DNA of 64,000 nt from the human T2T-CHM13v2.0 reference genome, Homo sapiens. A program made the position numbers and the translations under genes. Numbering within the stretch: position 1 is the first letter of the stretch; every line of letters starts with the position of its first letter. This document shows, piece after piece, positions 3,560-42,551 of this stretch. Below the pieces are notes generated by a model. That model worked only from the letters and a program-made list of their open reading frames with translations. It searched no databases and was not told where the DNA came from. Location of the stretch: assembly GCA_009914755.4 (NCBI GenBank), contig CP068257.2, positions 288,001 to 352,000 of the forward strand. The letters run 5' to 3'.

Positions 3560-3774
<215 letters not shown>

Positions 3775-5884: not shown

Positions 5885-5960
5885 CCTGTCCAGAGAAGCA
5901 AGACAAACACACACATACGCACACACACACACACACACACAGGCACACATGCATACACAA
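5885..5960. repeat. Imperfect (CA)n microsatellite
   Basis: acacacacatacgcacacacacacacacacacacaggcacacatgcatacacaaacacat. Confidence 0.8.
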
Positions 5961-7540: not shown

Positions 7541-7634
7541 GCTGATGGGCAAAGAGCTCACTGACAGTGTGGAAGCATCTATTTTGAAGTAGGATCTATG
7601 TTCAAGTGCAGAAAGAGCCCAATCTTGTAGATGA

Positions 7635-9830
7635 ACCACACAGCCAGCTTCTGGGTGCAGGCACAGTGCCACATTTTTTGTCACTTCCTGATGTGCCCCA
7701 CCAGCACTGAAGAGATAGCCTGGAGACAGGGCAAGAGGAAGGCTGAGAAGGATGAGATGGTGAGTGCCAGATTCTTCCTGGCCCTGAGCTCACCCCCAGG
7801 GTGACGCTCAACTTTTAGGAGTGAGAGAGGAAGATTGATGGCTTCAAGTGCTTCACCAAGAAGATGGACAACAGGGCACTCAGCTCAACTTCACAGCCAA
7901 TGAGTGGCGACAGGCTTTGAGAAAGAGAATCAGAAGCCTGACAGTTCTTCTTCAGCCTCAGCCAGGCCTTGAAGCTGGACCAGGCCATCCACATCAGTAT
8001 AGATGCCTTCCACTCTGTCAGTGAGCTCTTTGCCAGTCAGTCCAGGCAGGACCTGGACCCAGCCATGGACCTGTTAGTGCTGTCTCAGGGACACCAGACC
8101 AACATCCTGGACATCATCCACATACACAAGGAAGCTCTTACCAAAGTCACGGAGAACAGGCAACATGTGGCAGAAGGGAAGACAGAGGTGCAGAGGCTGA
8201 TGACGTCAGAATCACAGGAACAGGATTTCTTTGGCCACTTTGGCTGAAATTCACCACTTCCATCCAATTCCAGTGAGAGACATGGACTCACAGATGGAGC
8301 ATTTCTTGCAACAAGAGATACTACTTTTTCAAAAAGTCACCCAGGAATTGATAGTGTTGAATGACTCGATACTCGATCGTGGATGGTTTCCAGTTCAAGG
8401 ATACTTTCTACAGCAGAATAATAATACTAGCAAACAGCTAGTACAAGGACGGTTTTGTGCTCAACTGAAATCCAGCTGAATACAGAATTGTACAGGAAAC
8501 AGTTAATATGGTGATAGAATAGAAACAGTAGCAAACGTGAACTAAATCATACTATGAATGCCTAAACTACTGCTGTAACTTTTGGAAAAATGATAATACC
8601 ACTTTATTGCTTTTCGAAGTATGAATATTTTAGTGTATATGCTCTAGACCTCAAACTCTATAAAGAGTCTCAAAGAAGTTGGCTGGATAAAGCCTGCTGT
8701 GGATGTCTTTATATTCAAAGATTGATGATGCAATTTGAATATGTGTCCCCACCAAATCTCATGTTGAATTATATTTCCTAATGTGGAAGTTGGATCCTGG
8801 TATAAGGTGATTGAATTATGAAGGCAAATTTCTCATGAATGGTTCAGCACCATCCCCTTGTACCATCCTTACAATAATGAGTGACTTCTCATGAGATGTG
8901 GTCACTGAAAACTCTATATCACCTCCCTACTCTCCGTGTTTTCCCCTTGCCATGTGAGACAATTGATTCTTTCTTTGCCTTCCATGATTATTGAAAGATT
9001 TCTGAGGCCTAGAAGCAGAAGCACTCTGCTTAGAACCATGAGCCAATTAAACCTCTTTTTCAAAATAAATCATACAGAAAATGGTAAATGAGGACTGGAG
9101 CATTGCTATAAAGATACCTGGAAATGTGCAACCAGCTTTGGAACCAGGTAATGGAAGGAGGTTGGAAGAGTTTGGAGGGCTCAAAAGAAGACAGATAGAT
9201 GAGAAAACTTTTGGACCATCTTAGAGTCTGGTTCAATGGTTGTGACAAAAATCCTGACAGAAAAATGGACAGTGAAGGCCAGGCTGAGGAGGTCTCAGAG
9301 AGAAATAAGAAGCTTTCTGGAAAATGTCTTCCTTTTGGATATGGAAAGCTTACACAATGCCTGTACCATCATTGTACCTTAGAAGCAGTGGCCTTGCTTT
9401 TTATTTCAGAGACTCATAGGCAAAAGAGACTGTAGCCTTGACCCAGAGGAAACTTTGGACTTTGTAACTTTGAGTTAATCCTGAAATGAGTTAAGACTTT
9501 GGGAGACTGCTGGCAAGGCATGATTATATTTTGCAATGTGAGAAGGACATGAGATTCATGGGGTCAAGGACAAAATATACGGTTTTTCTCTATGTCCTTA
9601 CCAAAACTCACGTGGAATTATATTTTGTAATGTTAGAGGCAAGGTCTAGGTTGAAAAAGATTTAGTCATAAAATGGTGCAGGTAGATACTTCACGAATGA
9701 TAAAGGACCATCACCTTGATGCTATCCTCCTGATAATGAGTGAGTTCTCACGAGATCTGGTTGTTTAACAGATCTCATCCTCCTGCTCCTGCTTTAGGAG
9801 ACATCTCATTGTCCCTTGGCTTTCTGATAT
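7635..9830. repeat. Intra-window segmental duplication, copy 1; paralog at about 39415-41700
   Basis: Long collinear matches to copy 2. Examples are gcacagtgccacat...ccagcactgaagagatagcc...ggaaggctgagaaggatgagatggtgagtgc, agcctcagccaggccttgaagctggaccaggccatccaca, ggaacaggatttctttggccactttggctgaaattcaccacttccatccaattc, and ccatgagccaattaaacctctttttcaaaataaatcatacagaaaatggtaaatgaggactggagcatt. Confidence 0.75.
8045..8144 (+). repeat. Right arm of the inverted repeat; a third, direct copy lies at about 39845-39945
   Basis: ccaggcaggacctggacccagccatggacctgttagtgctgtctcagggacaccagaccaacatcctggacatcatccacatacacaaggaagctcttac. Confidence 0.8.
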
Positions 9831-12800
9831 AATGAGGAGGCTTCCTGATTCCTCCCAGAAACAGAAGACACTATACTTCCTTCACAGCTTGCAGAACCAT
9901 GAGTCAATTACACCTCTTTTATTTACAATAATACAGAAAATTAGAACTGCAGAGAGGAGCTGTGAAATGTCTTCAAGGCCTTTTTCCCTTTGTTTTGGCT
10001 ATTAGCACAGGGCTTCTTTATATGCAAATTTCTGAAATCTTCTTGAATGTTTCCCCTTAAATGGGATTTTTGTTATTGCTACACAGCCAACCTGCTATAC
10101 AGATTTCTGAAAAAGTAGAAGGAGGCTCAGTAGTGGGTAGCAAACAAAGATTGGAAGGGTTTGGAGGGATTAGATTATGACAGGGAGTGGGAGGGAGTGA
10201 TTTAATCATGCATGGGTGGGGGTGGATGTGGAAGGGAAAAAGGGGTGGGTAGGGTGGGAGGGAGTAGACTGGCTGTACGGTGGTGGGAGGGTGGTGGGTA
10301 GTAGGAAGGGAGAGTATCCTGCTGCAGAGGCAGAGTATCATGGAAAATCCCTCCTAGGGAAGTGCACCTGTGGCTTTGCAGGTTTGAGCCCCAATGGCTG
10401 CTCTCAAGGACTGGACTAGTGTTGAGTGCCTGTAGCTTTTCCACACGGAGGGTGCAAGCTGTTGGTGGGTCTATGAATCTGGGGTCTGGAGGGTGGTGGC
10501 CCCCTGCGTGGGGGCTCCAAGTCCATATTTTCCTTCTGCACTGCCCTAGTAGAGGTTTCCCAAGAATGATTCATCTGCAGCAGGCTTCAGCCTGGAAACA
10601 GTGGGAGGTGGGGGTGGGAGGCAGATCCTTCACCAATGGTTAGGCAACATCTTCTTGATGCTGTCCTCATGAAAGTGTGTTCTCATGAGATCTGGTTATA
10701 TAACAGGGTGTGGCACCTCTTTCCTCTCTCAGTCTTGCTTCCACCTCTGCCATTTGAATCATCTCATTGCCCCTTGGCCTTCTGGTATGATTGGAAGGCT
10801 TCCTGATCTGATCCTCCCAGAAGCAGAAGCCACTGTGTTTCCTTTACAGCCTGCTGAACCATGAACCAATTAAACCTCTTTTCTCTATGATCATACAGAA
10901 GATTAGTACTATGAAGTGGAGCCATGAAATGCCTTCCAGGCCCTTTCCCCTTTGTCTTGGCAACCAACACTCAGCTTCTTTTCATGCAAATATCTGAATC
11001 CTTCATGAATTATCCCCCTGAAAATGGACTTTTCTGTTTTACCACATTGCCAGGCTGTGATAAAGATAGCTGACAATGTAGAACCAGGTTCAGAAGTGGG
11101 TAAAAGACAGAGGTCAGAAGAGTTGGGAAAGCTTAGAAGACAGCAAGATGAGGAAAATATTGGACCACTATAGAGAATTGTTAAATACTTGTGATAGGAA
11201 GGCTGACAAAAGTGTAAACACTGAAGTCCAGAACTAAAAGGTCTCAGATGAAAATGAGGAATTTCCTATGAACAGGAGCCAAGATTACATTTGATTGGCC
11301 TTAGCAAAGAAGCTGGCTGCACGGGGACCCTGCCCTGGAGATCTGTGAAACTATGAACTTGGGGGTGATGATTTAGGATGTATCTGGTGAAATGAACATC
11401 TAGGCAGCATAGCACAAGAGGTGTCCTGCCTGCATTGAACAGCCTGTGTTCTTATGGGTGACCTAAGAAGTGACTTCAAGTTGGAACTTCAAGTGGAGAT
11501 CTAAAGTTTGGAAAATTTGGAGCCTGGCTAAGTGGTCAAAAAGAAAAGCCGATTTTGAGGGGGAAAATTCAAGAAGGCTTAAGGTATTTGTATAAAAAGG
11601 AACCCAGTGCATAAAGCCAAGATAGTGGGAAACCGGCCATGAAAGCATTTTAGAGATGTCTGCAGCAGCCCTTGCTGTCACAGGCCCTGGGGCCTAGGAG
11701 AAAAGAATGGTTTCCTAGGCCAGTCCCATGGCCCTGCTGCTGTGCTCAACTGCAGGACACTGCTGCCGGCATCCGTGCAGCTCCAGCACCAGCCATGGCT
11801 GAAAGATGCACAGGTACAGCTTGGGTCATTGCTTCAGAGGTGGCTCAAAGTCTTGATGGTTTCCATATAGTGTTAAGCCAGTAGGTGCACAGAGAAAGAG
11901 ATTAGAGGCTTGAGAACTCCCGTCTAGACTCCAGAAGATGTACAGAAAATCCTGGATGTTCAGGAAGAAGCTTTTCCGAGAGGCAGAGCTTCATGGGGAA
12001 CCTCTACTAGGGGAGCAAAGAAGGGACCTATAGGGTTGAAGCCCCCACACAGGAAGGCATCATTCTCTAAACCCCAGATTCATAGACCCACAAACAGCTT
12101 GCACCCTCAGTGTGGAAAAGCTATGGGCACTTAACAACAGCCCTGTCCATGAGAGACAGCCGCAGAGGCTGAACGCTGCAAAGCCACAGGTGCAGATCTG
12201 CCCAAGGCCTTGGGAGCTCAGCCCTCACAGCACTGTGCCATGGATATGGGACAAGAATTCAAAAATGATGATTTTGGAGCTGTAGCATTAAGTGACTGGC
12301 CTGCTGGGTTTTGGACACTTATGTATCCTATGAGTCATCCATTGCCTGTACAATCATTGTACCTTGGAAGTAGTAAACTTGCTTTATAACTCAGTGGCTC
12401 ATGGGCAGAAGGGACTGTAGACTGGTCTCAGATAAGACTCTGGGCTTTGCGCATTTGAGTAAATGCTGGAATGAGTTAAGATTTGAGAGACTCTAGGGAA
12501 GGCATCATTACATTTTGCAATGTGAGAAAGACATGAACTTTGGGGGACCAGAGACAGAATAATATGTTTTGGCTCTCTGTCTCTACCAAAGCTCATGTGG
12601 AATGTTAATGCGAAATGTTAAAGGTGGGAGCTGGTGGAAGGTGATTTAATCATGGTGGAGAGTGGAGGTTGGATGGTTGGGGGCGCTAGGAGGGTGGGGA
12701 TGGTTGGAGGGAATTGGGGGTGGGGATGGTTGGAGGAGATTGTGGTGGGGTTGGGGATGAAAGGCAGGGGTGGGGGTGGATCCTTCACAAATGGTTAAAC

Positions 12801-15800
12801 ACCATCTCCTTAATGCTGTCCTTCTGATAGTGAGTTAACTTCATGATTTTGGAGCTGTGAGATTGAATGAACACTGACGTACTGGATTTTGGATGTCCAT
12901 TGGGCCTGTGGTCCCATTTGTCTTATTTTTCTTGGAAATTTCTTCCCTTTGGATTAAGAAAGTTTACCCAGTACCTGTACCATCATTGTACCTTGAAAGA
13001 AACAAACACCCTTTTAACTTCAGGGACTTATAGGTAGAAGAGACTGTAGCCTTGTCTCAGATGAGACTTAGAACTTTTTACATTTGAGTTAATGCAGGAA
13101 GGAGTTAAGCCTTTTGGAAACTTTTGAAAAGACATGATTGTATTTTATTCTGTGAAAAGGATATGAGATCTAGGGGGTCAAGGTCAGCATAATATGATTT
13201 GGCTGTGTGCCCCTGGAAAAACTCATGTGGAATTGTAATCCCAAATCTTGGAGGTGGGGCCTGGTGGGAGATTATTTAATCATGGATGGGAGGGGTAGGG
13301 GTGGAAGAAAAAAGCGGTGGGTAGGGTGGGGAAGAATAGGCTGGCTGTAGGGCGGTGGGAGGGTGATGGATAGTAGGAAGGGGGAGTAGCCTGCTGCAGA
13401 GGCAGAAGCTCATGGAAAACCTCTACCAGGGCAGTGCACCTGTGGCTTTGCAGGCTTTAGCCCCCATGGCTGCTCTCATGGGCTGGGCTAGTGTTGAGAG
13501 CCTATCACTTTTCCATACTGAGGGTGGGAACTGTTGGTAGGTCTATGAATCTGGGATCTCGAGGATGGTGGCCTCCTGCATAGTCAGTCAAAGCCCTTAT
13601 TTTCCTTCTGCACTGCCATAGTACAGGATTCCCAAGAGCCTCTGCCTCTGCAGCAGGCTTCTGTCTGGAACAGTAGGAGGTGGAGCTGTGTTGGTGGGTT
13701 GGATCCTTCACCAATGGTTAAGCACCATCTTCTTGATGCTGACCTAGTGATAGTGAGTTCTCATGAGATCTGGTTATATAACGGTGTGGCACCTCTTTCC
13801 TCTCTCAGCCTTGCTCCTACTCCTGCCGTATGAAACATTTCATTGTTGTTTTCCTACTGGTGTGATTGGGAGGCTTCCTGAGTCCTCCCAGAAGCAGAAG
13901 CAGAAGCCACTATGCTTTCTTTACAGCCTGCAGAACCATGAGCCAATTAAACCCCTTTTCATTATGATCATACAGAAAATAAAGTACTGCGAAGTGGAGC
14001 TATGAAATATCTTCAGTGACATTTCCCCATCGTCTTGGCTATTAGCACTGGACTTCTTTTTAATGCAAATATCTGAAGCCGTCTTGAAGTTTCCCCCTGA
14101 AAATGGACTTCTTTTTCTTATACGTTGTCAGGCTGCAACAAAGATAGCTGAAAATGTAAAGCAGATTCAGAAGTGGGTAACAGCCAGAGGTTGGAGAGTT
14201 TGGAGAGCTTGAAAGAAGACAGGAAGATGAAAGAAATTTTGGACCATCGTAGGCACTTGTTGAATAGTTGTGATTAAAAGTCTGGCAGAAGGATAGACAG
14301 TGAAGGCCAGGCTTACAAGGTCTCAGATGAAAATGAGGAAATTACTGGGAACAGGAGCCAAGGTTACTTTTGTTTTGCTGTAGCAAAGAACATGGCTGCA
14401 GGGCGACCTTGCCCTCGAGATCTGTGAAACTTTGAACTTGAGGGTGATGATTTAGTGCATATCTGGTGGAATTAACTTCTAGGCAGCATAGCATAAGGGG
14501 GATTCTGTCTGCATCAAACAGCCTGTGCTCTTGTGTGACTGAGGTTATGCGTGACCGAGGAAATGACCTCAAGTTGGAACTTATATTTAAATGACAAGCA
14601 GAGCTCAAAAGTTTAGAACCATTTGCAGCCTGGCCAAGTGGTCAAAAAGAAAAGCTGATTTTCAGGGGGAAAATTCATGAAGGTTCCAGAAATTTGCATA
14701 AAATGGAGGCCAGTGCTAATAGCCAAGACAATGGGGGAAAAAGCCTTGGAGGCATTTCAGAGATGGTTGCAGCAGCCCTTGGTGTCACAGACCCTGGGGC
14801 CTAGGAGAGAAGAATGGTTTCCGGGGCCAGCCCCATGGCCCTGCTGCTGTGTGCAGCCTCAGGATACTGCTGCCTGCATCCCAGCAGCCGCAGCTCCTGC
14901 TCCGACCTTGGCTGAAAGATGCACAGGTACAGATTGCATCACTGCTTCAGAGGGTACAAGCTATAAGGCTTCACGGCTTCCACATAGTCTTAAGCCAGCG
15001 AGTCCATAGAGCACTAGCCCAGAGGCTTCAGAGCCTTCATATAGATTTTGGAAGATGTATGAAAATGCCTGGATGTCCAGACAGAAAGCTGCCAAAAAAG
15101 CAGAGCCTCCTGGGAAACCTCTACTAGGGCAGTGCAGAAGGAAAATATGGGGTTGGAGCCTCCACACTGGAGGCCACCATCATGCAGACCCCAGATTCAT
15201 AGACCCACCAAGAGCTTTGTACCCTCTGTGGGTAAAAACTACAGGCACTCAACACCAGCAAAGCCCATGAGGGCAGCTGTGGGGACTGAAAACTGCAAAG
15301 ACACAGGTGCAGACCTGCCCAAGGCCTTGGGAGTCCAGCCCTCATGCCCTTGTGCCCTGGATGTGGGAGAAGGATTAAAAAAGGATGACTTTGGAGCTGT
15401 AGGTTTGAGTAACTGGCCTGCTGGGTTTTGGATTTTCCTGGGACCTGTAAGTCCCGTTTGTGTTTCGTTGTTCTCTCTGGCAAAAATCTTCCTTTAGGGT
15501 GGGAATTCTTACTCAATGCCTGGACAATCATACCTTGGAAGTAGTTAACTTGCTTTGTATTTCAGAGGCTCAGGAGCAGAAGGGACTGCATCTTTGTCTC
15601 AGATGAGACTTTGGGCTTCAGACATTTAAGTAAATGCTGGAATGAGTTAAGACCTTGGAGGTCTTAGCCAAGACGATGGGGAAAAGTCAATGAAGGCATT
15701 TTCATAGCTTCACTTCACAGTACTAATTTTCTGTATGATCATAACAAAAAGGGGTTTAATTGGCTGATGGTTCTGCAGGCTGTAAAAAAAAGCATAGTGG

Positions 15801-18800
15801 CTTGGGGAATGGTAAGTAAGGCATCACTGTATTTTGCAAAGTGAGAAGGACATGAGATTTGGGGAGGCAGGGACAGAATAAGATTCTGCTGTGTGTCCCT
15901 ATGGAAACTCATGTGGAATTGTAATGAGAAGTGTTAAAATTGGGGCCAGGTGGAAGATGATTTAATCATGGAGGGCACTGGGTGTTGGAAGGTGGAGATT
16001 GGGGAGGATGGGTGGATTACGCTGGTGGTGAGGGGTGAAAAGTGGGGGTGGGGGGGATCCCTCACAAATAGTTAAACACCATCTCCTTAATCCTTTCCTC
16101 ATGATGGTGATTCTCGTGATAGTTTTGGAGCTGTGAGATTTAATGGATACTGGCCTCCTGGGTTTTGGACTTGCATTGGCCCTGCGATCCCATTTGTGTT
16201 ATTTTCCTGGCAAACCTCTACCCTTTGGATTGAGAAAACTTACCCAATGCCTGTACCATCATTGTACCTTGAAAGAAAAGAACTCCCTTTTAAATTCCGG
16301 GACTTATAGGCAAAAGGGACTGCAGCCTTTTCTCAGGTGAGACGTGGAACTTTTTACATTCGAGTTAATGCTGAAATGACTAAAGACTTTTGGCAACTTT
16401 TGAAAAGGCATGATTGTATTTTACTCTGTGAGAAGGATATGATATTTGGGGGATCAGGGTCAGAATAATATGGTTTAGCTGTGTGTCCCTACCTAAACTC
16501 ACATGTAATTGTAATCCCGAATGTTGCAGGTGGAGCCTGGTGGGAAGTGATTTATTCATGGATGGGAGAGGGGTGGGGTTGGAAGTAAAAACAGATGGGT
16601 AAGGTGAGGAGGAGTAGGCTGGCTGTAGGGTGGGGTGTAGCAGGAAGGGAGTAGCCTGCCACAGAGGCAGAGGCTCATGGAAAACCTCTACTAAGGCAGT
16701 GCACCTGTGGCTTTGCAGGGTTTAACACCTGCTGCTGCCCTCATGGGCTGGGCTGGTGTTGAGTGCCTGTAGCTATTCCATACCGGGGGTGTGAGCTGTT
16801 GGTGGGTCTATGACTCTTGGGTCTGGAGGATGGTGGCGTGGGGGCTCCAAGCCCATATTTTCCTTCTGTACTGCCCTAGTAGAGGTTTTCCAAGGGGATC
16901 TGTCTCTGCCTCAGGCTTCTGCTTGGAAACAGTGGGTGGTGGATATGGGGAGGTGGGCGGATCCTTCGCCAATAGTTAAGCACAATCTTCTTGATGCTGA
17001 TCTCCTGATAGTGAGCTCTCATGAGATCTAGTTGTATAACAGGATGTCTCACCTCTTTCCTCTCTCTGTCTTGCTTCTACTCCTGCCATATGAAACATTT
17101 CATTGCCGCTTTGCCTTTTGGTATAATTGGGGGGCTTCCTGAGTCCTCCTACAAGCAGAAACCACTATGCTTTCTTTACAGCCTGAAGAACTGTGCGTCA
17201 ATTAGACCTCTTTTCTTTATGTAGATACAGAAAATTAATGCTGTGAAGTTATGAAATGACTTCTAGGCGTTTCCCCCATTCTCTTGGCTATTAGCATTGA
17301 GCTTTTTTCAATGCAAATATTGGAGGCCATCTTGATGTTTCCCCTGATAATGGACTTTTCTTCTTTTACCACATTGCCAGGCTGCAACAAAGATAGCTGA
17401 CAGTGTAGAAGCAGGTTCCAAATTGGGTAGTGGCCAGAGGTTAGAGAGTTTGGAGAGCTTGGAAGAAGACAGGAAGATGAGGGAAAGTTTGGACGATTGC
17501 AGAGACTTGTTAAATAGTTATGATTAAAAGGCTGACAGAGGATGGATACTGAAGGCCAGGCTTGTAAGGTCTCAGATGAAAATGAGGAACTTACTGGGAA
17601 AAGGAGCCAAGGTTTTTCTGTTTTGCCTTAGCAAAGTAATTGGCTACACAGTGACCCTTCCCGGGAGATCTGTGAAGCTGAACGTGAGGGTGATGATTTA
17701 GGGTGTATCTGGTGGAATGAACTTCTAAGCAGCAAAGCTCAAGAGTTGTCCGGCCTACGTCGAACAGCCTGTGCTCCTATGTGTGATGAAAGAAATGACC
17801 ATAAGTTGGAACTTATATTTAAATGAGAAGCAGAGCTTCAACATTTGGAAAATTTGTAATCTGGACAAATGGTCAAAAAGAAAAGCTGATTTTCAGGGGG
17901 AAAATCAAGAAGCCTTCGGATATTTGCATAAAAAGGAGCCCAGTGCTAATAATTCAAGACAATGGGAAAAAGGCCTTGAAGGCGTTTCAGAGACCTTTGT
18001 AGCAGCCCTTGCTGTCACTGGCCCTGGGATTTAGGAGAAAAGAATAGTTTCCTGGCCCAGCCCCATGGCTCCAGTGCTGTGTGCAGCCTCAGGACACTGC
18101 TGCCTGCATCCCTGCAGCTCCCTTTCCAGCTCCAGCCATGGATGAAAGATGCACAGGTACAGCTTGTGTCATGCTTCAGAGGATGCAAGCTCCAAGCCTT
18201 GGTGGCTTCCACATAGTGTTAAGCCAGCAGGTGCATAAAGCACAGGACTAGAAGCTTCAGAGCCTTGTCTGGACTCCAGAGGATATATCAGAAATCCTGA
18301 GTGTCTAGCCAGAAGCTTTTCCAAGAGGCAGAGCCTCATGGTTAACCTCTACTCGGGCAGTACAAAAGGAAAGTATAGGGTTGGAGTCCCCATACAGGGA
18401 GGCACCATTTTCCAGACCCCAGTTTCATAGACTCACCAGCTGCTTGTACCCTTAGTGTTGAAAAGCTACAGGCACTCAACACCAGCCTAGCCAATGAGGG
18501 CAGCTGTAGGGGGAAAATTCTGCAATGCCACAGGTGCAGAGCTGCCCAAGGCCTTGGGATCCCAGCCATCACACCACCCTGTGCTCTGGATGTGGACATA
18601 GATTCCAAAAAGATGATTTGGAGCTGTATGATGGAATGACTGGCCTGCTGGGTTTTTGACTTGCAGGGGATTTGTAAGTCCCGTCTGTGTTTTGTGCTTC
18701 TTTCTGGGAAATTTCTTCTTTTTGGCTTGGAATGCTTACCCAATGCCTGTACAATCATTGTAACTTGGAAGTGGTTAACTTGCTTTGTATTTCAGAGGCT

Positions 18801-21800
18801 CAGGCCAGAAGATATGACAGCCTTGTCTCAGAGGAGACTTTGGCCTTTGGACATTTGAGTAAATGCTGGGATGAGTTAAGATTTGGGGGACTCTAGGGAA
18901 GGCATCATTGCATTTTGCAATGTGAGAAAGACCTGAACTTTGGGGGACCAGGGACAGAATAATATGTTTTTGCTCTGTGTCTCTACCAAAACTCATGTAG
19001 AATTTTAATGGGAAATGTTAAAGGTGGGGGCTGGTGGAAGGTGATTTAATTATGGTGAAGAGTGGAAGTTAGATGGTTAGGGGGTTGGGGAGGGTTGGGG
19101 AGATTAAGGGGTGGGGAGGGTAGGGGGGATTGTGGTGGGGTTGGGGGTGAAAGACAGGGGTGGGGGGTGGATCCTTCTCAAATGGACATTTGAGTAAATG
19201 CTGGAATGAGTTCAGACATTGGGGGACTGTAGAGAATGCATCATTGTATTTTGCAGTATGAGAAGGATGTGATCTTGGGGGGCCAAAGGGAGAATAATAT
19301 GATTTGTCTCTGTGTCCCTACCAAAACTCATGTGGAATTATAATGGGGAATGTTAAGTATGGGGCTTGGTAGAAGGTGATTTAATCATGGTAGAGAATGG
19401 GGGTTGGAAGGGGGATGTGGGAGAATGGAGGTTCATGGTGTGGGTGAGGGTGAAACATGGGGATGGGTGGCAGATCCTTCACAAATGGTTAAATACTATC
19501 TCCTGAATGCAGTCTGTGTGATAGTGAGTTCTCATGATAAATGAATGCTGTCCTGCTGGGTTTTGGAGCCAGATTGGGCCTGTGTCCCATTTGTGTTATT
19601 TTTCTGGGAAAACCTTCCCTTTGGTTTGAGAAAGCCTACCCAGTGCCTGTGCCATCATTGTAACTTGAAAGAAAAGAATTGTCTTTTACATTCAGGGACT
19701 CATAGGCAGAAGGGATTGCAGCCTTCTCTTGGATGAGACTTGAACTTACTACATTTGAGTTACTGCTGGAATGAGTTAAGACTTTTTGAAACTTTTGAAA
19801 AGACATGTTTGTATTTTTCTGTGTGAGAAGGACATGAGATGTGGGGGTGTCAGGGTCAGGATAATATGGTTTGGCTGTGTTTCCCTACAAAAACTCATGG
19901 GGAATTGTATTCCTGACAGTTGTAGGTGGGGCCTGGTGGGAGGTGATTTAATCACAAATGGGAGGTTGGTAGGGGTGGAAGGGAAAACAAATGGGTAGGA
20001 TGGGGAGGAGTAGGCTGGCAGTAGGGTGGTGAGAGTTTCGTGGGCAGTAGTAAGGGGGAGTAGCCTGCTGCAGAGGCAGAGCCTCATGGAAAACCTCTAC
20101 CAGGGCAGTGAACCTATGGCTTTGCAGGGTGTAGCCCCCATGGCTGCCCTCATAGGCTGGGCTGTTGTTGAGTGCCTGTAGCTTTTCCATACTGAGAGTG
20201 CAAGCTGTTGGTGAGTCTATGAATCTGGGGTCTGAGGATGGTAACCTCCTGTGTGGGGCCTCCAAGCCCATATACTTTTTCTGCTCTGCCCTATTAGAGG
20301 TTTTCCTAGTGGCTCTGCCTCTGCCTCAGGCTTCTGCCTGGAAACAGTGAGGGGTGTGGGTGGTAGGGGGCAGAACTTTCACCAATGGTTAGGCAACATC
20401 TTCTTGATACTGACCTTGTGATAGTGAGTTCTCAGGAAATCTGGTTGTATAACAGGGTTATACAACGTGTGGCACCTTTTTCCTCTCTCTGTTTTGTTTC
20501 TACTTCTGCCATATAAAACATCCCATTCCTGCTTGGTTTCTGGTATGATTGGGAGGCTTCCTGAGTCCTCCCAGAAGCAGAAGCCTCTATGATTTATTTA
20601 AAGCTTGCAGAACCATGAGCCAGTTCAACCTCTTTTCTTTCAGATTATATAGAAAAATAATGCTATAAAGTGGAACTATGAAATGCCTTCAAGGCCTTTT
20701 TCCTATTCTCTTGGCAATCAGCACTCAGCTTCTTTTCAGGCAAATATGTGAAGCCTGCATTAATTTTTCTCCTGAAATGGACTTTTCTTCTTTTACCACA
20801 TTGCCAGGCTGTGACAAACGTAGCTGAAAATGTAGAAGCAGGTTGAGAAGTGTGTAATGGCCAGAGGTTGGAGAGTTTGGAGGTCTTGGAAGAAGACAGG
20901 AAGATGAGGAAAAGTTTGGATCAGTGTAGAGACTTGTTAAATAGTTATAATTAAAAAGGTGACAAAAGGATGGACAGTGATCACCAGGCTTAGAAGGTCT
21001 CACATGAAAATGAGGAGCTTGCTGGGAACAGGAGTCAAGGTCACTTCTGTTTTTTCCTTAGCAAAGAATGTTGCTGCACAATGCCCCTAACCTGGAGACC
21101 TGTGAAATTTTGAACATCAGGGTGATAATTTAGAGTGTATTTTGTGGAATGAAATTTTAGGCAGCAAAGCTTAAGAGGTGTCCTGTCTGTTTCGAACAGC
21201 CTGTGGTCCTATATGTGACAAAAGAAATGACCTCAAGGTTAAACTTGTATTTAAATGAGAAGGAGAGCTTAAAAGTTTGCAAAATTTGAAGCCTGGCCAA
21301 GTGGCCAAAAAGAAAAGCTGATTATCAGTGGGAAAGTTCAAAAAGTCTTCAGAAATGTGCATAAAAAGGAGTTCAGTGCTAATAGCCAATACAATGTTAA
21401 AAAGGTCTTGAAGGCATTTCAGAGACTTTTGCAGCAGCCCTTGCTATCACAGGCCCTGAGGCCTGGGAGAAAAGAATGGTTTCCGTCTCCAGCCCCATGG
21501 CCCCGCTGCTATGTCCATCCTCAGGACACTGCTGGCTGCATTCCTGAGGCTCCAACTCCGGCCTTGGGTGAAAGATGCACAGGTACAGCTTGGGTCACTG
21601 CTTCAGAGGGTGCAAGCTGCAAGCCTTGGTGGCTTCCACATAGTGTTAAGCCAGCAGGTGCACAGAGCACAAAACTAGAGGCTGGGGATCCTTTGTCTGG
21701 ACTACAGAGTATGTATGGAAAAACCTTGGTGTCCAGGTGGAAACTTTTCCAAGAGGCAGAGCCTCCTTTACTTAGGCAGTACAGAAGGAACATATACGTT

Positions 21801-24800
21801 TGGAACCCCATACAGGGAGGCAGCATTCTGCAAACGCCAGATTCATAGACTCACTAGCAGCTTGCACCCTGATTGTGGAAAAGCTATAGGTACTCCACAA
21901 CAGCCCAGCCCATGAGGGCAACTGGGGAGGTTAGACCCTGCAAAGTCACAGATGCAGACCTGCCCAAGGCCTTGGGATCCCAGGCCTCATACCCTTGTGC
22001 TCTGGATATGGGATCTGGATTCAAGAAAAGTGATTTGGAGCTGTAGGAATCAATGACTGGCCAGTTGGGTTGTTGACTTTTATGGGGTCTGTAAGTCCCA
22101 ACTGTGTTTTGTACTTCTTTCTGGCAAATTTCTTCCTTTTGGCTGGGAATACTTACCCATGCATGTACAATCATTGTACTTTGGAAGTGCTTGCTTTGTA
22201 TTTCAGAGGCTCAGGGGTAGAACATATGGCAGCCTTGTGTCAGAAGAGACTTTGGGCTTTGGACATTTCAGTAAATGCTGGAATGAGTTAAGAGATTGAG
22301 AAACTGTAGAGAAGGCATCATTGAACTTTGCAGTGTGAGAACAACATGAGATATGAGGGCCAGGGTCAGAATAATATGATTTGGCTCTGCATCCCTACCA
22401 AACTCATGTGGAATTGTAATGGGGAATGTTGAAGGTGGGGTCTGGTGGGAGGTGATTTCATAATGGAGAAGCATGGGGTTTGGAGGTAGGGCTGTGGGGA
22501 GAATGGGGGAGATTATTTTGTGGGTGGGAGTGAAAGATGAGGGTGGGGGTGCAGATCCTTCACAAATGGGTAAACACTATCTCCTTAATGCTGTTCACAT
22601 GACAGTGAGTTCTCTTGATGATGTTGGAGCTGTGAGATTGAGTGAATACTGTCCTGATGGGTTTTGGACTTGCATTGGGCCTGTGGGCCCATTTGTGTTA
22701 TTTTTCTGGGAAATCTCTTCCCTTTGGACTGAGAAATCTTACACAATGCCTCTACCATCATTGTACCTTGAAAGAAAAGAACTCCATTTTAAATTCAGAG
22801 ACTCATAGGCAGAAGGGACTGTGGCCTTATCTCAGATGAGACTTTGAATTTTTTACATTCGGAGTGAGTTAAGACTTTTGCAAACTTTTGAAAAGTCATG
22901 ATTGTATTTTGCTCTGTGATAAGGACATGAGATTCTGAAACATCAGGGTCAGAATTATATGGTTTGCCTGTGTGTCCTTATGAAACTCATGTGGAATTAT
23001 AATCCCTAATGTTGAAGCAAGTGACTTAATTATGGACAGGAGATTGGTGGTGATGGAAGGTAAAAGGGATGGGTAAGATTGAGAGGAGTGGGTTGGCTGT
23101 AGGGTGTTTGGAGGGTGGGGGGTAGTAGGAAGGGGGAGTAGCCTGCTGCAGAGGCAAAGCCTCATGGAAAACCTCCACTAGGGAAGTGCACCTGTGGCTT
23201 TGCAGGTTTTAGCCCCTCAGCTGTTCTCCTGGGCTGGGCTGGTATTGAGGGCCTGTAGCTTTTCCACACTAAGGGCGTGAGTTTGTGCGTCTATGAATCT
23301 GGGATCTGGAGGTTGGTGGCCACCTGTGTGGGGGCTCCAAGCCCATATTTTCTTTCTGTACTTCCATAATAGAGGTTTTCTAAGAGGTTCTGCATCTGAA
23401 GGAGGCTTCTGCCTGGAAACAGTGGGAGTTGGGGGTGTGGGGCGGATCCTTCACCAATGTTTAAGCACCATCTTCTTGATGCTGACTTTGTGATAGTGAG
23501 TTCTCATGAGATCTGCTTGTATAATGCAGCATGACAACTTTTTCCTTTCTCTGTCTTGCTCCTACTCTTGCCATATGAGACATCTCCTTGCCCCTTGACA
23601 TTCTGGTATGATTGGGAGGCTTCCTGTGTTTTGTCAGATGCAGAAGTCATCATGCTTCCTTACAGCCTGCAGAATCATTAACCAATTAAACCTCTTTTCT
23701 TTGTGATCATTGAGAAAATTATGACTGCAAAGTGGATCTATTAAGTGTCTTCAAGGCCTTCTCCCTAACGTCTTGGCAATCAGCACTCAGCTTCTTTTCA
23801 CTCAAGTATCTGAAGCCTCCTTGACTTCTTCCCCAGAAAATGGGCTTGTCTTCCTTTACCACATTGCCAGCCTGCAACAAAGATAGCTGATAATGTAGAA
23901 GCAGGTTCAGAAGGGGGTAGCAGATGGAGTTTGGGAGAGTTTGGCGGACTTCAAAGACAGGGAGATGAGGGAAAGTTTGGATCTTTGTAAAGAATTGTTA
24001 AATACTTGTGATCAGAAGGCTCACAGGAAAATAGACAGTAAGGATCAGATTGAGAAGCTCTGAGATGAAAAGGAGGAACTTACTGCAAACAGGAGCCAAG
24101 GTTACTTTTGTTTTGCTGTAGCAAAGAACGTGGCTGCACAGTGACCCTGCCCTGGAGATCTGTGAAACTTTGAACTTGAGGGTGATGACTTACTGAGTAT
24201 CTGGTGGAATGAACTTCTGGGCAGCAAAGCTCAAGGGGTGTCCTGTCTGTATCAAATAGCCTGTGCCCTTATGTGTGACTGAGGAAATGACATCTGGATG
24301 GGTCTTACATTAAATCAGTCCCAACTCTTATATTATATGAGAAACAGAACTCAAAAATTTGCAGCCTGGCCAAATGGTCAGAAAGAAAAGCTCATTTTCA
24401 GGGGAAAACTGAGGAAGGCTTCAGAAATTTGCATGAAAAGGAGCCCAGTGCTAATAGCCAAGACAATAGGGAAAAGGCCTTGAAGCCATTTCAGAAACCT
24501 TTGCAGCAGCCCTTGCTATCATAGGCTCTGGGGCCTCAGAGAGAAGAATGGTTTCCTGGGCCAGTTCCATGACCCCCCTCTATATGCAGCCTCAGGACAC
24601 TGCTGCCTTCATCCCTGCAGTTCTAGCTCCAGCCATGGCTAAAAGATGCACAGGTACAGCTTGCATCACTGCTTCAGGGGTGCAAGCTTCAAGGCTTGGT
24701 GGCTTCCACATAGTGTTAAGCCAGCAGCTGCACAGAGCACATAACTAGACGCTTGCAAGCCTTTGTCTAGACTCCAGAGTATGTACGGAAAAACCTGGCT

Positions 24801-26480
24801 GTTCACACAGAATCTTTTCCGAGGCAGAGCCTCACGGGAAACTTTTACTAGGGCAGTACAGAAGGAGCATTTAGGGCTGGAGTCCCTAAATATGGAGGCA
24901 CCATTCTCCAGACTCCAGATTCATAGACCCACCAACAGCTGGCACCCTTAGTATGGAAATGCTACAGGCACTCAACATCAGCCCAGCCCATGAGGGCAGC
25001 TGCGGGGGATAGACCCTGCACAGCCACAGGTGCAGAGCTGCCCAAGGCCTTGGAAGCCCAGGCATCACACACCTGTGCTCTAGATGTGAGATGTAGATTC
25101 AGAAAAGATGATTTGGAGCTATAGGATTCAATGACTGGCCTGCTGGGTTTTTGACTTGCATGGGGTCTGTAAGTCCTTGTACATTTCAGTAAATGCTGGA
25201 ATGAGTTAAGTCATTGGGGGACAGTAGAGAAGTCATCAGTGTATTTTGCAGTGTGACAAGGATACAAGATTTGGGGAGCAAGAGCCAGAATAATATGATT
25301 TGATTCTGTGTCCCTACCAATGCTCATGTGGAATTGTAGTGGGGAATGTTAAAGGTGGGACCTGGTGGGAGGTGATTTAATCATGGAGAAGAGTGGGTGT
25401 TGGAGGTAGGGGTGTGGGGAGAATGGGAGAGATTATTTTGTGGGTGGGAGTGAAAGATGAGGGTGGGGGGCAGATTCTTCACAAATGAGTAAACATTATC
25501 TCCTTAATGCTGTCCGCACGACAGTGAGTTCTCTTGATGATTTTGGAGCTGTGAGATTGAGTAAATACTGTCCTGCTGGGTTTTGGACTTGCATTTGTGT
25601 TATTTTTCTGGGCAACTTCTTCCCTTTGGATTGAGAAGCCTTACCCAATGACTGTTGTACCTTGAAGGAAAAGAAATCCCTTCTAAATTCAGGGACTCAT
25701 TGGCAGAAGGGACTGTAACCTTGTCTCAGATGAGACTTTGAAATTTTTACATTCGGAATGAGTTAAGACTTTTGGAAACTTTTGAAAAGGCATGATTGTG
25801 TTTTGCTCTGTGAGAAGGACATGAGGTTCTGGGGAATCAGGGTCAGAATAATATGGGTTGGCTGTTGGCTGTGTGTCCCTATAAAACTCATGTGTCATCC
25901 TTAATGTTGGAGGTGGGCCAGGTGGGAAGTGACTTAATCTTGGATGGGAGGGGGTTGGGGTGGAAGGAAAAGGAGGGATAGTGTGGGGAGGAGTAGGTTG
26001 TCAGTAGGGTGGTGTGAGGGTGGGAGTAACCTGCTGCAGAGGCAGAGGCTCATGGGAAACCTCTACTAGGAGAGTGCACCTGTGGCTTTGCAGGGAGTAA
26101 CCCCCACAGCTGCTCTCATGGGCTGGGTTGGTGTTGAGTGCCTGTAGCTTTTCCATACTGAGAGTGTGAGCTGTTGGTGGGCTTATTAATCTGGAGTCTG
26201 GAGGATGGTGGCCTCTTGTGTGGGGGCTCAAAGCCTCTATTCTCCTTCTGCACTGCCATAGTGGAAGTTTCCTAAGAGGTTCTGCCTCTGCAGGAGGCTT
26301 CTGCCTGGAAGCAGTGGGCAGTGGTGTGGTTGGAGAATCCTTCACCATTGGTGAGTCTTCTTGATGCTGATCTCCTGATAGTGAGTTCTCATGTGATCTG
26401 GTTGTCTAACAGGATGTCACACCTCTTTCCCCTCTCTGTCTTGCTCCTACTCCTGCCATATGAAACATCTCATTGCCGCT
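9040..26480. repeat. Macrosatellite. A head segment is followed by one internally deleted unit (9898-10861) and five units of 2.8-3.4 kb. Units are built from MaLR LTR (MST/THE1-like)-derived sequence plus unit-specific sequence.
   Basis: Unit landmarks of the form ccatgagccaattaaacc...acagaaaat...gaaaatggact...ttgccaggctg...aagatagctga recur at about 9898, 10861, 13938, 17190, 20617 and 23680. The periods are 3077, 3252, 3427, 3063 and about 2800 bp. MaLR hallmarks include actcatgtggaattgtaatcccaaat, ggaggtggggcctggtgggag, tgatttaatcatgg, gatccttcaccaatggttaagcaccatc, tgatagtgagttctcatgagatctggtt, ggcacctctttcctctctc, and ggaggcttcctgagtcctcccagaagcagaag. Confidence 0.75.
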
Positions 26481-26504
26481 TGGCCTTCTGATATGGTTAG
26501 GAGG

Positions 26505-27315
26505 GGCCTGATCAGTGTGGGCCTGCTCAGTGGACCTACTCAGCTGGGACTTGTCAGTGAGGCCTATTTAGTGGGGGTGGTCAGCAGGGGTCTGCTTAGA
26601 GCGGGTGTCATTAGAGGGATCTAGTAGTGCATGTCTTGGTGAGTGGGTTGATAGTGGCAGACAAATGTTTGGTGTCTGGTCAGTGCCAACCTGGGCTGTG
26701 GGACTCGGTCAGTGGAGACCTTGTCAGCTGGGGCTTAGTGGTGGCCTTGTCAGATTGGGCTGGGTTACTGGTGACTAGGTCAAGGGGCGCTATTCAGTGG
26801 AGGCCTGGTGACATGGGACCTAGTCAGCAGAGACGCTTATCAGTGGGGCCCTGGTCAGGGCAGGCTTGTCCGTGGAACTTAATCAGTGGGGGCCTGGTCA
26901 GAGAGGACTTGATCAGTGGTGGCTTTTGTAGCACTGGTCTACGGGTTGACCTGGTCAGCGGGGATCTGAGCAGTGCGTGCCTGTTCAGTGGGGCGTAGTC
27001 ATTAGGATCCCAGTCAGGGGCATCTTGTCACCTCAGGCCTGGTTAGCAGGGGCCTGGTCACTGGCTGTCTATTCCCTGCAGGCCTGGTCCGTGGGGCTTC
27101 GTCTGTGGGACCAGAAAATGGGGTCATGATCGGTGGAACCTGATCAGTGAGGCCTTGTCAGTAAGGTCCTCGTCAGTGGAGTCCTGGTCATTGTGGGCCT
27201 GGCAGCGGGAATCTAGTTAGTGAGGCCTGGTGATGGGGCTCTAATCAGTGAGGGTGTGGTCAGGGAGGAAGTGATATGCTGGATCTGGTCACCAGGGACC
27301 TGGTCAGTGGGGGCT
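26505..27315. repeat. G-rich minisatellite GGCCTGGTCAGTGGGG(N), locus 2, directly abutting the last macrosatellite unit
   Basis: The same unit as at 5070-5550. The junction reads ggttaggagg|ggcctgatcagtgtgggcctgctcagtgg. Confidence 0.75.
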
Positions 27316-27680
27316 GCTGAGTACTGCTGGGAGATGTCAGGGGAAATGCATGTTATCGAGGAGCCTGTGGACAGCTGGGGTGGCCCAGTCGTGTTCAATG
27401 GCCCACTCAAAAGTGGACAAAGCAGGTGTTTTGATGGACCTGGGAGATCTTGCTCAGAGATTCTGACAGGACAAAGGTAAAGGAAGGGCCAGAGTGGTCG
27501 GAGAGATAGTCACAGTCTATGGTCTGCACAGGATGGAGGAGGCCAGGGAACAGGCAGGGTGGGCAGCTGGGTTTCAGGGAGAGGCAGGTGCATGCTGGGA
27601 GGTCAGACCCTATGAGGGCTGTGGGGGCGTCAGGTGGTGTGGGCTCCAGGTGCACCCTCAGTGCACTGGGCAGGTCTTGG
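27316..27680. repeat. Duplicated unique block B, copy 1; paralog at 42216-42550
   Basis: Runs from atgcatgttatcgaggagcctgtggacagctggggtggcccagtcgtgttcaatggcccactcaaaagtggacaaagcaggtgtttt to ggtgtgggctccaggtgcac. It matches 42240-42550 closely. Confidence 0.75.
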
Positions 27681-39000: not shown

Positions 39001-39420
39001 TGGCTGCTTGCTTTTTGAGCCAGCTTGGCCTAGCCCGGCATGCACAAGTCTGTGCAACAACTGTGACACAAATGGAGCCACACAGAGAAAACGAGCAGCG
39101 GGCTCAGGAGCAGGGTGTGTGCTTCCTCGGGGGCTCCAGTCCATGCCTGAGGATTCATATGGCACTGCGGACTTCTTGGTTGCAAAGAGGTAGACCACAG
39201 GCCATCTTCAGGAGGTCTTTATGTGGAAGTGCGGAAAGCAGCCAGGATTACCACCCGTGGGACTCGGCCTTTTGTGGCCCTGGCCTGACAGAATTTGGCC
39301 CAAGGAAGGACAAGCTCACTCAGAGCAACATGTCGGTACCTGGGTCCTGTGCATGCCAGGCAAGGCAAAGCTGGCTCAAAGAGCACCCAGAGCATCCATT
39401 CTGGTGGAGGAGCCAACCAC
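36065..39420. repeat. Tandem array of about 4.5 units of a 630-820 bp unit, each with an internal roughly 60 bp inverted repeat
   Basis: The landmark gccagcttggccttgcctggcat(g/a)cac occurs at about 36195, 36840, 37567, 38385 and 39018. Each unit contains ccttgcagaggtggctggttgctctttgagccagcttggccttgcctggcatgcac and its reverse complement ggcctgtgcatgccaggcaaggccaagctggctcaaagagcaaccagccacctctgcaagg about 300 bp apart. Confidence 0.8.
38140..38275 (-). other. Local inversion of unit sequence, plus a roughly 45 bp L1-like scrap at 38080-38125, inside the 730 bp array
   Basis: ccatgcctcagggctcatatggcactgtgggccacagaagggcgagtacccagggtggtaatcctgcctgctttctgcacttgaacataaagtcctcctcaagacgacctgtggtctgcctcttgg is the reverse complement of the unit segment ccaagaggcagaccacaggccatcttgaggaggactttatgttcaagtgcagaaagcagccaggattaccacccaggggactcggccttctgtggcc. 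The L1-like scrap reads atccatcttaagttaatttttgtatgaag. Confidence 0.7.
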
Positions 39421-42550: not shown

Positions 42551-42551
42551 T

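What the first reader, a model, noticed from the sequence alone, without database searches (positions are those of the whole stretch)
9040..26480. A 17 kb macrosatellite of about 3.2 kb units built from MaLR-LTR-derived sequence
Six landmark sets recur at periods of 3077, 3252, 3427, 3063 and about 2800 bp. They are preceded by one internally deleted unit of about 0.96 kb and a head segment. Each unit is a composite of four parts. The first is a MaLR (MST/THE1-type) LTR-like body. The second is a G-rich block (gggaggggtaggggtggaag...). The third is a roughly 200 bp segment present in both orientations within the same unit, for example 11975-12160 (minus-like) versus 13460-13640. The fourth is unit-specific sequence. 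Units differ from one another by roughly 10-15%, so the array is old rather than recently homogenised. Kilobase-scale tandem arrays with internal inverted subrepeats are rare and often copy-number polymorphic. Known macrosatellites such as D4Z4 and DXZ4 can carry epigenetic functions. I cannot match this array to a named macrosatellite from memory.
Basis: seen in the sequence. Interest (0 to 1): 0.72.

Follow-up and report, generated by a model that had tools for sequence, protein, structure and literature searches.

The report
Known MaLR "LTR array" megasatellite copy
The 17 kb block is a real tandem array of about 3.2 kb units built from a rearranged MaLR retrotransposon, but it belongs to the "LTR array" family of primate pericentromeric repeats described in 2008 and shows no sign of function, so it is ordinary.

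Summary
Positions 9.1-26.5 kb contain a head unit, one internally deleted unit, five full monomers (2.9-3.4 kb) and a partial sixth, all head-to-tail. The interpretation needs three corrections.

1. The monomer is not LTR-only. It holds a near-complete MaLR internal region, one and a half LTRs, a second copy of the internal 3' end, G-rich blocks and inverted internal fragments.
2. Monomers differ by about 19-21% (K2P 0.19-0.25), not 10-15%.
3. The array is not unnamed. It matches the "LTR arrays" of Warburton et al. 2008 (PMC2588610): ~3.5 kb MaLR-only monomers, 25 or more arrays on at least 9 human chromosomes, embedded in segmental duplications.

Their two published FISH-probe primers match once per monomer (0-2 mismatches), 1.5-1.7 kb apart. 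In addition, 89 metagenome contigs are monomer-specific paralogues, 78-97.8% identical to the window.

I found no CpG island (CpG o/e 0.10), no CTCF or canonical DUX4 core, no Rfam or Pfam hit, no shared ORF and no conserved sub-region.

A paralogous copy of both flanks at 39.4-42.6 kb carries a single LTR in place of the array. The most likely reading is an old, decaying tandem amplification spread by duplication. It is already known and of low interest.

The parts
9104..9680 (+). Head unit. It is an internally deleted MaLR: internal 5' piece (9104-9323) joined to the internal 3' end (9315-9556) and the LTR 5' part (9560-9669). Its LTR lacks the ~400 bp G-rich/inverted insert found in all later units.
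9680..10189 (+). LTR 3' half plus the first ~290 bp of internal sequence. Together with 10190-10618 it forms the ~0.94 kb internally deleted unit, with about 2.3 kb missing.
   Evidence: 9680-10174 = 10619-11137, offset 939; 9685-10187 = 13702-14226
10190..13262 (+). Monomer U1 (3073 bp)
   Evidence: primer sites at 10310 and 11801
13263..16542 (+). Monomer U2 (3280 bp), used as the reference map.
- G-rich block: 13263-13380.
- Short palindrome (arms 13385-13438 and 13609-13662) enclosing the inverted internal fragment: 13429-13669.
- LTR 3' half: about 13700-13975.
- Inverted internal fragment: 14018-14138.
- Internal region, + strand: 14346-15664.
- U2-only inverted duplicate: 15665-15803.
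- Internal 3' tail: 15802-15872.
- LTR 5' part a: 15877-15975, followed by a G-rich tract.
- Second copy of the internal 3' end: 16118-16450.
- LTR 5' part b: 16467-16561.
16543..19935 (+). Monomer U3 (3393 bp)
19936..23019 (+). Monomer U4 (3084 bp)
23020..25924 (+). Monomer U5 (2905 bp)
25925..26513 (+). Partial monomer U6: G-rich block, inverted internal fragment and LTR 3' half. It is truncated inside the LTR.
26514..27330 (+). Flank B. A degenerate ~15 bp G-rich minisatellite (GGnCCTGGTCAGTGG-like) that truncates the terminal LTR. It is shared with copy 2.
7634..9103 (+). Flank A, upstream of the array. It is duplicated at 39415-40944 (K2P 0.13).
39415..42555 (+). Paralogous copy 2 of the locus without the array: flank A', the head unit, a single insert-free LTR truncated at the same point, then flank B'.

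Best explanation
The array is one copy of the primate 'LTR array' megasatellite family (Warburton et al. 2008). The proposed history has five steps.
1. An MST/THE1-type MaLR retroelement (LTR plus non-coding internal region) was rearranged into a ~3.2-3.5 kb composite. The composite gained an extra LTR-5'/internal-3' piece, G-rich tracts, and a flipped piece of the internal region inserted into the LTR.
2. That composite was amplified head-to-tail to about six copies by unequal crossing-over. The starting LTR-internal-LTR repeats make this easy.
3. Homogenisation then stopped and the monomers decayed independently. They are now about 20% apart and CpG is almost gone.
4. The whole diverged array with its flanks was later copied to many loci by segmental duplication. 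This explains the monomer-specific paralogues.
5. In the older in-window paralogue, recombination between the first and the last LTR removed the array, leaving a solo-LTR-like remnant.

Shown: the structure, family membership, paralogy and lack of functional marks. Inferred: the order of events, the crossing-over mechanism and neutrality.
For: Tandem structure.

Composition. A MaLR internal sequence written from memory aligns collinearly over ~1.3 kb on the + strand in each monomer (E 1e-130 to 1e-177). LTR 5' pieces and inverted fragments lie at the same phase in every unit. Inverted pairs are confirmed.

Published description. It matches point by point: ~3.5 kb monomers, only MaLR, both orientations, embedded in segmental duplications.

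Published primers. Primer 2B matches at 10310, 13382, 16647, 20056, 23134 and 26022 with 0-2 mismatches. Primer 2A matches at 11801, 14914, 18144, 21570 and 24641 with 0-1 mismatch. About 0 matches are expected by chance for each primer. Spacing is 1.49-1.53 kb in one direction and 1.4-1.9 kb in the other.

Paralogues. 89 of 96 metagenome contigs found with primer 2A match the array. Mean best-monomer identity is 90.9%, against 81.6% for the second-best monomer. Collinear matches reach 6.4 kb, and some span the head and tail junctions.

Decay. K2P between monomers is 0.19-0.25 in a star-like pattern, and CpG o/e is 0.10. The conservation profile is flat, with a maximum z of 2.1.

Copy 2. It has an insert-free LTR that follows the head and then the tail. 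Flank K2P of 0.13-0.16 is lower than the monomer K2P.

No functional marks.
Against: - The MaLR labels of the pieces rest on consensus sequences I recalled, plus the paper's RepeatMasker description. No Dfam or RepeatMasker run was possible.
- The LTR 3' half gave only a weak hit to my recalled LTR.
- The G-rich blocks are not assigned to any element.
- The genomic location and species of the window are unknown, so a pericentromeric position is only suggested by the adjacent CER satellite.
- The loss scenario for copy 2 assumes equal substitution rates. An array-less ancestral state later filled in by non-allelic recombination is not excluded.
- Absence of motifs, ORFs and RNA-family hits does not prove absence of function. 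Transcription and chromatin state were not testable.
Confidence: 0.88

Rival explanations
1. A functional macrosatellite of the D4Z4/DXZ4 kind. Each unit would carry a CpG-rich regulatory or insulator module, or a gene, and copy number would set the chromatin state.
For: Unit size (~3.2 kb) and tandem layout resemble D4Z4 (3.3 kb) and DXZ4 (3 kb). Each unit has G-rich blocks.
Against: - CpG o/e is 0.10 and GC is 47%. No 200 bp window has GC > 0.5 with o/e > 0.6.
- No CTCF core match lies in the array.
- The longest ORF is 163 aa and ORFs are not shared between units. There is no Pfam hit.
- Monomers are only 79-83% alike, so copy-number-driven homogenisation is long over.
- Only 2 canonical G4 motifs occur in the array.
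Confidence: 0.04
2. A cluster of independent MaLR insertions that only looks periodic.
For: MaLRs are abundant. The region is made of LTR and internal pieces in both orientations.
Against: - Every unit shares the same non-canonical junctions at the same phase. One example is the G-rich/inverted-fragment junction covered by primer 2B.
- Units abut directly and align collinearly over about 3 kb.
- Independent insertions would not share internal rearrangements.
Confidence: 0.01
3. A plain (LTR-internal)n array made only by unequal recombination between the two LTRs of one intact provirus-like MaLR, with no prior composite.
For: LTR and internal region alternate in one orientation. The head LTR is intact and insert-free. 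Copy 2 looks like a solo LTR.
Against: The period (2.9-3.4 kb) exceeds one LTR plus one internal region. Each monomer also holds a second LTR-5'/internal-3' piece, a ~400 bp insert inside the LTR and two inverted fragments. The amplified unit was therefore already a composite. LTR-LTR exchange may still have been the first step.
Confidence: 0.12
4. A tandem platform of DUX-family (double-homeobox) binding sites, or a germline-transcribed repeat such as a piRNA or lncRNA source.
For: DUX4 binds MaLR LTRs and multi-site peaks are more active. The LTR position that holds the DUX4 site in THE1 reads TGATTTAATCA six times in the array.
Against: No canonical TAAYBBAATCA core occurs in 9-26.6 kb. The site is no better conserved than its surroundings. 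No RNA-family hit appears even at E <= 0.1.
Confidence: 0.04

Closest known systems
'LTR arrays' megasatellite family (Warburton et al. 2008, BMC Genomics 9:533, PMC2588610)
   Same: - Monomers of ~3-3.5 kb.
- Made of MSTA/THE1 LTR fragments and MST-int in both orientations.
- Both published conserved primers are present once per monomer at the expected spacing.
- Embedded in segmental duplications, with many paralogous arrays.
- Array size (17.4 kb, 5 full units) lies within the listed range. The 9q22.33 entry is 17,464 bp with 5 units.
   Different: There is no 6-monomer higher-order repeat and no LTR6A insert, so it is not of the 13q11/18p11/21q11 type. It is a short array of diverged monomers like those listed for chromosomes 1, 2, 4, 8 and 9. 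The exact locus and species were not determined.
D4Z4 and DXZ4 macrosatellites
   Same: Kilobase-scale (3-3.3 kb) tandem units.
   Different: Those are GC- and CpG-rich, highly homogenised, bound by CTCF and (for D4Z4) gene-bearing. This array is CpG-depleted, about 20% diverged between units, and has no gene and no CTCF core.
Tandem LTR-retrotransposon arrays and solo-LTR formation by LTR-LTR recombination (general mechanism)
   Same: Head-to-tail LTR-internal-LTR-internal order. A paralogous copy carries a single LTR where the array would be.
   Different: The repeating unit is a rearranged composite rather than a clean LTR plus internal region.
CER (48 bp) peri/centromeric satellite, source of mir-1299
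   Same: The neighbouring 4 kb array at 42556-46605 has a 48 bp unit and gives the mir-1299 Rfam hit.
   Different: It is not part of the MaLR array and serves only as context for a pericentromere-like setting.

Membership tests
LTR-array megasatellite (Warburton 2008) | Tandem monomers of about 3.5 kb | tested here: met
   Five full monomers of 2905-3393 bp plus partial units. Diagonals at 2.9-3.4 kb.
LTR-array megasatellite (Warburton 2008) | Monomer made of MaLR LTR fragments and MST-type internal sequence, in both orientations | tested here: met
   A recalled MaLR internal consensus aligns over ~1.3 kb on the + strand per unit, and two inverted fragments per unit also match it. LTR 5' pieces occur twice per unit. 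Caveats: the consensus comes from memory, the LTR 3' half matches only weakly, and the G-rich blocks are unassigned.
LTR-array megasatellite (Warburton 2008) | The published conserved-region primers (2B GGGAGTAGCCTGCTGCAGAGG; 2A GAAAGATGCACAGGTACAG) split the unit into two ~1.7 kb parts | tested here: met
   2B matches 6 of 6 units with 0-2 mismatches. 2A matches 5 of 5 full units with 0-1 mismatch. About 0 matches are expected by chance for each primer. Intervals are 1.49-1.53 kb and 1.38-1.91 kb.
LTR-array megasatellite (Warburton 2008) | Many paralogous arrays, embedded in interrelated segmental duplications | tested here: met
   89 contigs at 78-97.8% identity, monomer-specific, some spanning the array/flank junctions. 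Both flanks are duplicated within the window.
LTR-array megasatellite (Warburton 2008) | Six-monomer higher-order repeat with LTR6A insert (only the 13q11, 18p11.21 and 21q11.2 arrays) | tested here: not met
   All monomer pairs are 79-83% identical, there is no higher-order diagonal, and unit lengths leave no room for an extra LTR. This feature defines a subtype, not the family.
LTR-array megasatellite (Warburton 2008) | Pericentromeric or acrocentric short-arm location in human | not testable with these tools
   No primate genome is available here. The adjacent CER satellite is consistent with such a location.
D4Z4/DXZ4-type macrosatellite | CpG-island-like, GC-rich unit | tested here: not met
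   GC 46.7%, CpG o/e 0.10, and no qualifying 200 bp window.
D4Z4/DXZ4-type macrosatellite | CTCF site or gene in each unit | tested here: not met
   No CTCF core consensus match in the array; this was a crude IUPAC scan. No shared ORF and no Pfam hit.
D4Z4/DXZ4-type macrosatellite | High inter-unit identity and copy-number polymorphism | tested here: not met
   Identity is 79-83%. Polymorphism is not testable here.
Simple (LTR-internal)n retrotransposon tandem | Unit equals exactly one LTR plus one internal region | tested here: not met
   Each unit holds an extra LTR-5'/internal-3' piece, a ~400 bp insert in the LTR and inverted fragments.

The most novel reading that the evidence does not exclude
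These decayed MaLR arrays are retained and repeatedly co-duplicated in pericentromeric regions because they do something. They might act as clustered weak DUX-family sites (TGATTTAATCA, about once per monomer), or as germline-transcribed heterochromatin or small-RNA sources. On that reading, this copy and its array-less in-window paralogue would form a natural with/without pair for testing the effect.
Probability: 0.04. Interest if true: 0.5.

Novelty: already known. Interest (0 to 1): 0.12.

Why it matters
It matters little as a discovery, because the family was described, mapped by FISH and tabulated in 2008. This window adds a clear worked example in three respects.
- The amplified unit is a rearranged full-length MaLR composite rather than LTR-only sequence.
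- Monomers diverged about 20% before the array was spread by duplication, since paralogues are monomer-specific.
- A paralogous flank pair 31 kb away carries a single insert-free LTR instead of the array. This illustrates LTR-mediated gain or loss at such loci.

It is also a reminder that macrosatellite-like periodicity alone does not imply D4Z4/DXZ4-like biology.

Tried and rejected
- Rfam at gathering threshold on the whole window gave only a borderline mir-1299 hit in the neighbouring CER satellite. At E <= 0.1 on 8.5-27 kb it gave nothing.
- ORF listing and Pfam on the seven longest ORFs found no domains and no ORF shared between units.
- IUPAC scans for the DUX4 core, the CTCF core, G4 motifs and CpG-island windows gave nothing phased with the unit, apart from a one-mismatch DUX-like site. 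The motif consensuses were recalled from memory, so the scans are crude.
- A scan of bacterial and archaeal genome contigs with primer 2B found 0 hits.
- Seven of the 96 metagenome loci were chance primer matches with no similarity to the window.
- I tried to infer species or locus from the metagenome contigs. No contig is >= 99% identical to the window, but the contigs also almost never match each other at >= 99% (3 of 588 pairs), so this is uninformative.
- Literature. The OwlRep/HSAT6+MSTA paper concerns a different repeat. The Brahmachary 2014 macrosatellite genotyping paper does not cover LTR arrays. The 2017 macrosatellite review cites Warburton but does not discuss these arrays. A T2T/composite search found no newer name for the family in the held library.
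- My recalled THE1B and MSTA LTR consensuses matched the LTR 5' parts only weakly (E 1e-6 to 1e-10) and the LTR 3' half only once. LTR assignment therefore leans on direct reading and on the paper's RepeatMasker description.
Full report

Yes. A self-comparison of the window gives long direct alignments inside 10.2-26.5 kb at offsets of 3073, 3319, 3417, 3077 and 2918 bp. They are 1.4-3.4 kb long, 75-80% identical and have E = 0.

I set monomer boundaries at a shared landmark:

| Monomer | Coordinates | Note |
|---|---|---|
| U1 | 10190-13262 | full |
| U2 | 13263-16542 | full |
| U3 | 16543-19935 | full |
| U4 | 19936-23019 | full |
| U5 | 23020-25924 | full |
| U6 | 25925-26513 | partial |

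- The ~200 bp segment in both orientations is real and present in every unit.
- One figure is off. Monomers are 79.3-83.2% identical over aligned columns, with K2P 0.19-0.25, so they differ by about 20%, not 10-15%.
- The window is primate. Alu probes hit at least 9 times, but none hits between about 2.2 and 49.5 kb.

**2. What is the unit made of?**

Reading 12.3-15.9 kb suggested MaLR LTR and MaLR internal sequence. I wrote down THE1B-LTR, MSTA-LTR and THE1-internal consensus sequences from memory, so they are a lead and not a database result. I then aligned them to the window.

- The 1338 nt internal sequence aligns collinearly on the + strand once per monomer, at 11270-12544, 14346-15664, 17595-18944, 21023-22365 and 24088-25178. 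E-values run from 1e-130 to 1e-177.
- Each monomer also has two LTR 5' pieces, each preceded by a copy of the internal 3' end.
- Each has a ~400 bp insert inside the LTR. It consists of a G-rich block plus an inverted piece of the internal region (consensus positions ~936-666) framed by a short palindrome.
- Each has a second inverted internal fragment just after the LTR.

The unit is therefore a rearranged full-length MaLR composite, not LTR-only sequence. Because every unit shares the same odd junctions at the same phase, a cluster of independent insertions is excluded.

**3. Is it known?**

Yes. Warburton et al. 2008 (PMC2588610) describe 'LTR arrays' with these properties:

- They form a megasatellite family of ~3.5 kb monomers made entirely of MaLR elements, namely MSTA and THE1 LTR fragments and MSTA-int in both orientations.
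- There are 25 arrays on at least 9 human chromosomes, about 460 kb in total.
- They are mostly pericentromeric and embedded in interrelated segmental duplications.
- The three large arrays (13q11, 18p11.21, 21q11.2) have six-monomer higher-order repeats marked by an LTR6A insert.

The paper prints its FISH-probe primers, and I used them as a membership test.

- Primer 2B (GGGAGTAGCCTGCTGCAGAGG) matches the + strand once in each of the six units, at 10310, 13382, 16647, 20056, 23134 and 26022, with 0-2 mismatches.
- Primer 2A (GAAAGATGCACAGGTACAG) matches once in each of the five full units, at 11801, 14914, 18144, 21570 and 24641, with 0-1 mismatch.
- About 0 matches are expected by chance for each primer.
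- The two sites divide the unit into parts of about 1.5 and 1.4-1.9 kb, in line with the paper's 'two ~1.7 kb fragments'.

The array has no higher-order repeat and no room for an LTR6A. It therefore resembles the short arrays listed for chromosomes 1, 2, 4, 8 and 9. Its span (9040-26513 = 17,474 bp, five full units) is close to the 9q22.33 entry (17,464 bp, 5 units). That is only a lead.

**4. Paralogues**

An exact scan of metagenome contigs with primer 2A returned 96 stretches, mostly low-coverage contigs that are presumably host DNA.

- 89 of them match the array.
- Each matches one particular monomer, or runs collinearly across several, far better than any other monomer. Mean best identity is 90.9% and mean second-best is 81.6% (n = 83).
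- Best identities form a graded series from 97.8% down to 78%.
- Long collinear examples are L018 (6.4 kb, 95.4%), L064 (5.8 kb, 94.7%) and L037 (4.2 kb, 96.4%).
- L087 (4.0 kb, 96.1%) crosses flank A, the head and U1. L050 (3.4 kb, 93.1%) crosses U5, U6 and flank B.

So the monomers had already diverged when the whole array, with its flanks, was copied to other loci. This is what the paper's 'embedded in segmental duplications' implies.

The contigs rarely match each other at >= 99% (3 of 588 overlapping pairs). The lack of a >= 99% match to the window therefore says nothing about species or locus.

**5. The in-window paralogue**

Both flanks of the array recur about 31 kb downstream with no array between them:

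| Copy 1 | Copy 2 |
|---|---|
| 7634-9771 | 39415-41612 |
| 26372-26831 | 41568-42020 |
| 27139-27660 | 42036-42555 |

- In a three-way alignment, copy 2 and the head of copy 1 both have an LTR without the ~400 bp insert.
- Copy 2 follows the head into the LTR and then follows the tail.
- Its LTR is truncated at the same point as the tail's, by the same G-rich ~15 bp minisatellite.
- Flank divergence (K2P 0.13-0.16) is smaller than monomer divergence (0.19-0.25).

If rates are similar, the array predates this duplication. Copy 2 then most likely lost its array by recombination between the first and last LTR, which is solo-LTR-type collapse. This ordering is inferred. A late gain in copy 1 by non-allelic exchange is not excluded.

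**6. Does it do anything?**

I found no sign that it does.

- CpG o/e is 0.10 and GC is 46.7%. No 200 bp window looks like a CpG island.
- There is no CTCF core match and no canonical DUX4 core (TAAYBBAATCA) in the array.
- The LTR position that carries the DUX4 site in THE1 reads TGATTTAATCA in six places, a one-mismatch variant.
- Only two canonical G-quadruplex motifs occur.
- The longest ORF is 163 aa, ORFs differ between units, and none has a Pfam domain.
- Rfam finds nothing in 8.5-27 kb even at E <= 0.1.
- Conservation across the five monomers is flat: mean 0.81, SD 0.04, best 60-column window 0.89, z 2.1.

These features contrast with D4Z4 and DXZ4, which are CpG-rich, homogenised and bound by CTCF or gene-bearing.

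**7. Most likely mechanism**

1. A MaLR element was rearranged into a composite.
2. The composite was amplified to about six copies by unequal crossing-over. The edge (head) unit keeps the older insert-free LTR.
3. Homogenisation ceased and the copies decayed.
4. Segmental duplication spread the array.
5. At least one paralogue collapsed to a single LTR.

Structure, family membership and paralogy are shown. Mechanism, order and neutrality are inferred.

**8. Context**

The window from about 6.8 to 46.6 kb is a patchwork of tandem arrays.

- A 48 bp satellite lies at 42556-46605. It is of the CER type, which is the source of mir-1299 and is peri/centromeric.
- A ~640-815 bp repeat lies at 36129-39390, with a single copy at 6821-7435.
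- The G-rich minisatellite of flank B follows the array.

This supports, but does not prove, a pericentromere-like setting.

**9. Verdict**

This is a real feature, correctly spotted. It is a member of an already described family and has no evidence of function. Novelty: already known. Interest: low.

Noticed in passing
window 42556-46605 (Rfam hit at 44899-44981, minus strand): A 4 kb array of a 48 bp satellite (about 84 copies, 79% matches). It is of the CER type. The Rfam mir-1299 hit inside it scores 89.8 bits against a gathering score of 89. It probably reflects a CER dimer rather than the annotated miRNA gene.
   Followed up: partly
window 36129-39390 and 6821-7435: A tandem array of ~640-815 bp units (~85% identical, GC ~55%). 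A single copy of the unit sits upstream of the MaLR array (83% identical). I could not identify this repeat.
   Followed up: no
window 6821-9771 plus 26372-27660, versus 36129-42555: An in-window segmental duplication (K2P 0.13-0.16) in which each copy expanded a different module. Copy 1 has the MaLR array. Copy 2 has the 640-815 bp array and abuts the CER satellite. No CER-like sequence follows flank B in copy 1.
   Followed up: yes
window 26500-27330 (also 41700-42555): A degenerate ~15 bp G-rich minisatellite (GGnCCTGGTCAGTGG-like) that cuts the terminal LTR at the same point in both copies.
   Followed up: partly
window 27524-27795 and 28220-28491: An inverted repeat of 272 bp, 86% complementary, about 425 bp apart, just downstream of the array flank.
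   Followed up: no
window 15665-15803 versus 13904-14041: An inverted duplicate of the LTR-end/internal-start junction that is present only in monomer U2. It is 90% identical over 140 bp and 94% over 65 nt. It is therefore much younger than the ~20% monomer divergence, which shows later local rearrangement.
   Followed up: partly
window ~2240-49500: Neither of two Alu probes hits in about 47 kb made mostly of tandem arrays, whereas at least 9 Alus lie in 49.5-64 kb.
   Followed up: partly
window 54077-54692: A 62 bp tandem repeat, 9.9 copies, 95% matches. It is much more homogeneous than the other arrays in the window.
   Followed up: no
window 47818-48423 and 62177-62388: Further small tandem repeats: 157 bp x2, then 100 bp x3, and 58-60 bp x3.5 with a G-run.
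   Followed up: no
window 10198, 12642, 15958, 19377, 19944, 25373: The LTR site homologous to the DUX4 motif of THE1 reads TGATTTAATCA. This is one mismatch from the recalled DUX4 core TAAYBBAATCA. It recurs six times in the array.
   Followed up: partly
L055 (1608+, 3767-); L068 (1-3753 versus 3739-7052): Two paralogous-array contigs show later rearrangement. L055 has the primer site on both strands, which indicates an inversion junction. L068 is 97.4% identical to the window in flank B but only 89.3% in the adjoining monomers, so it is a mosaic.
   Followed up: partly
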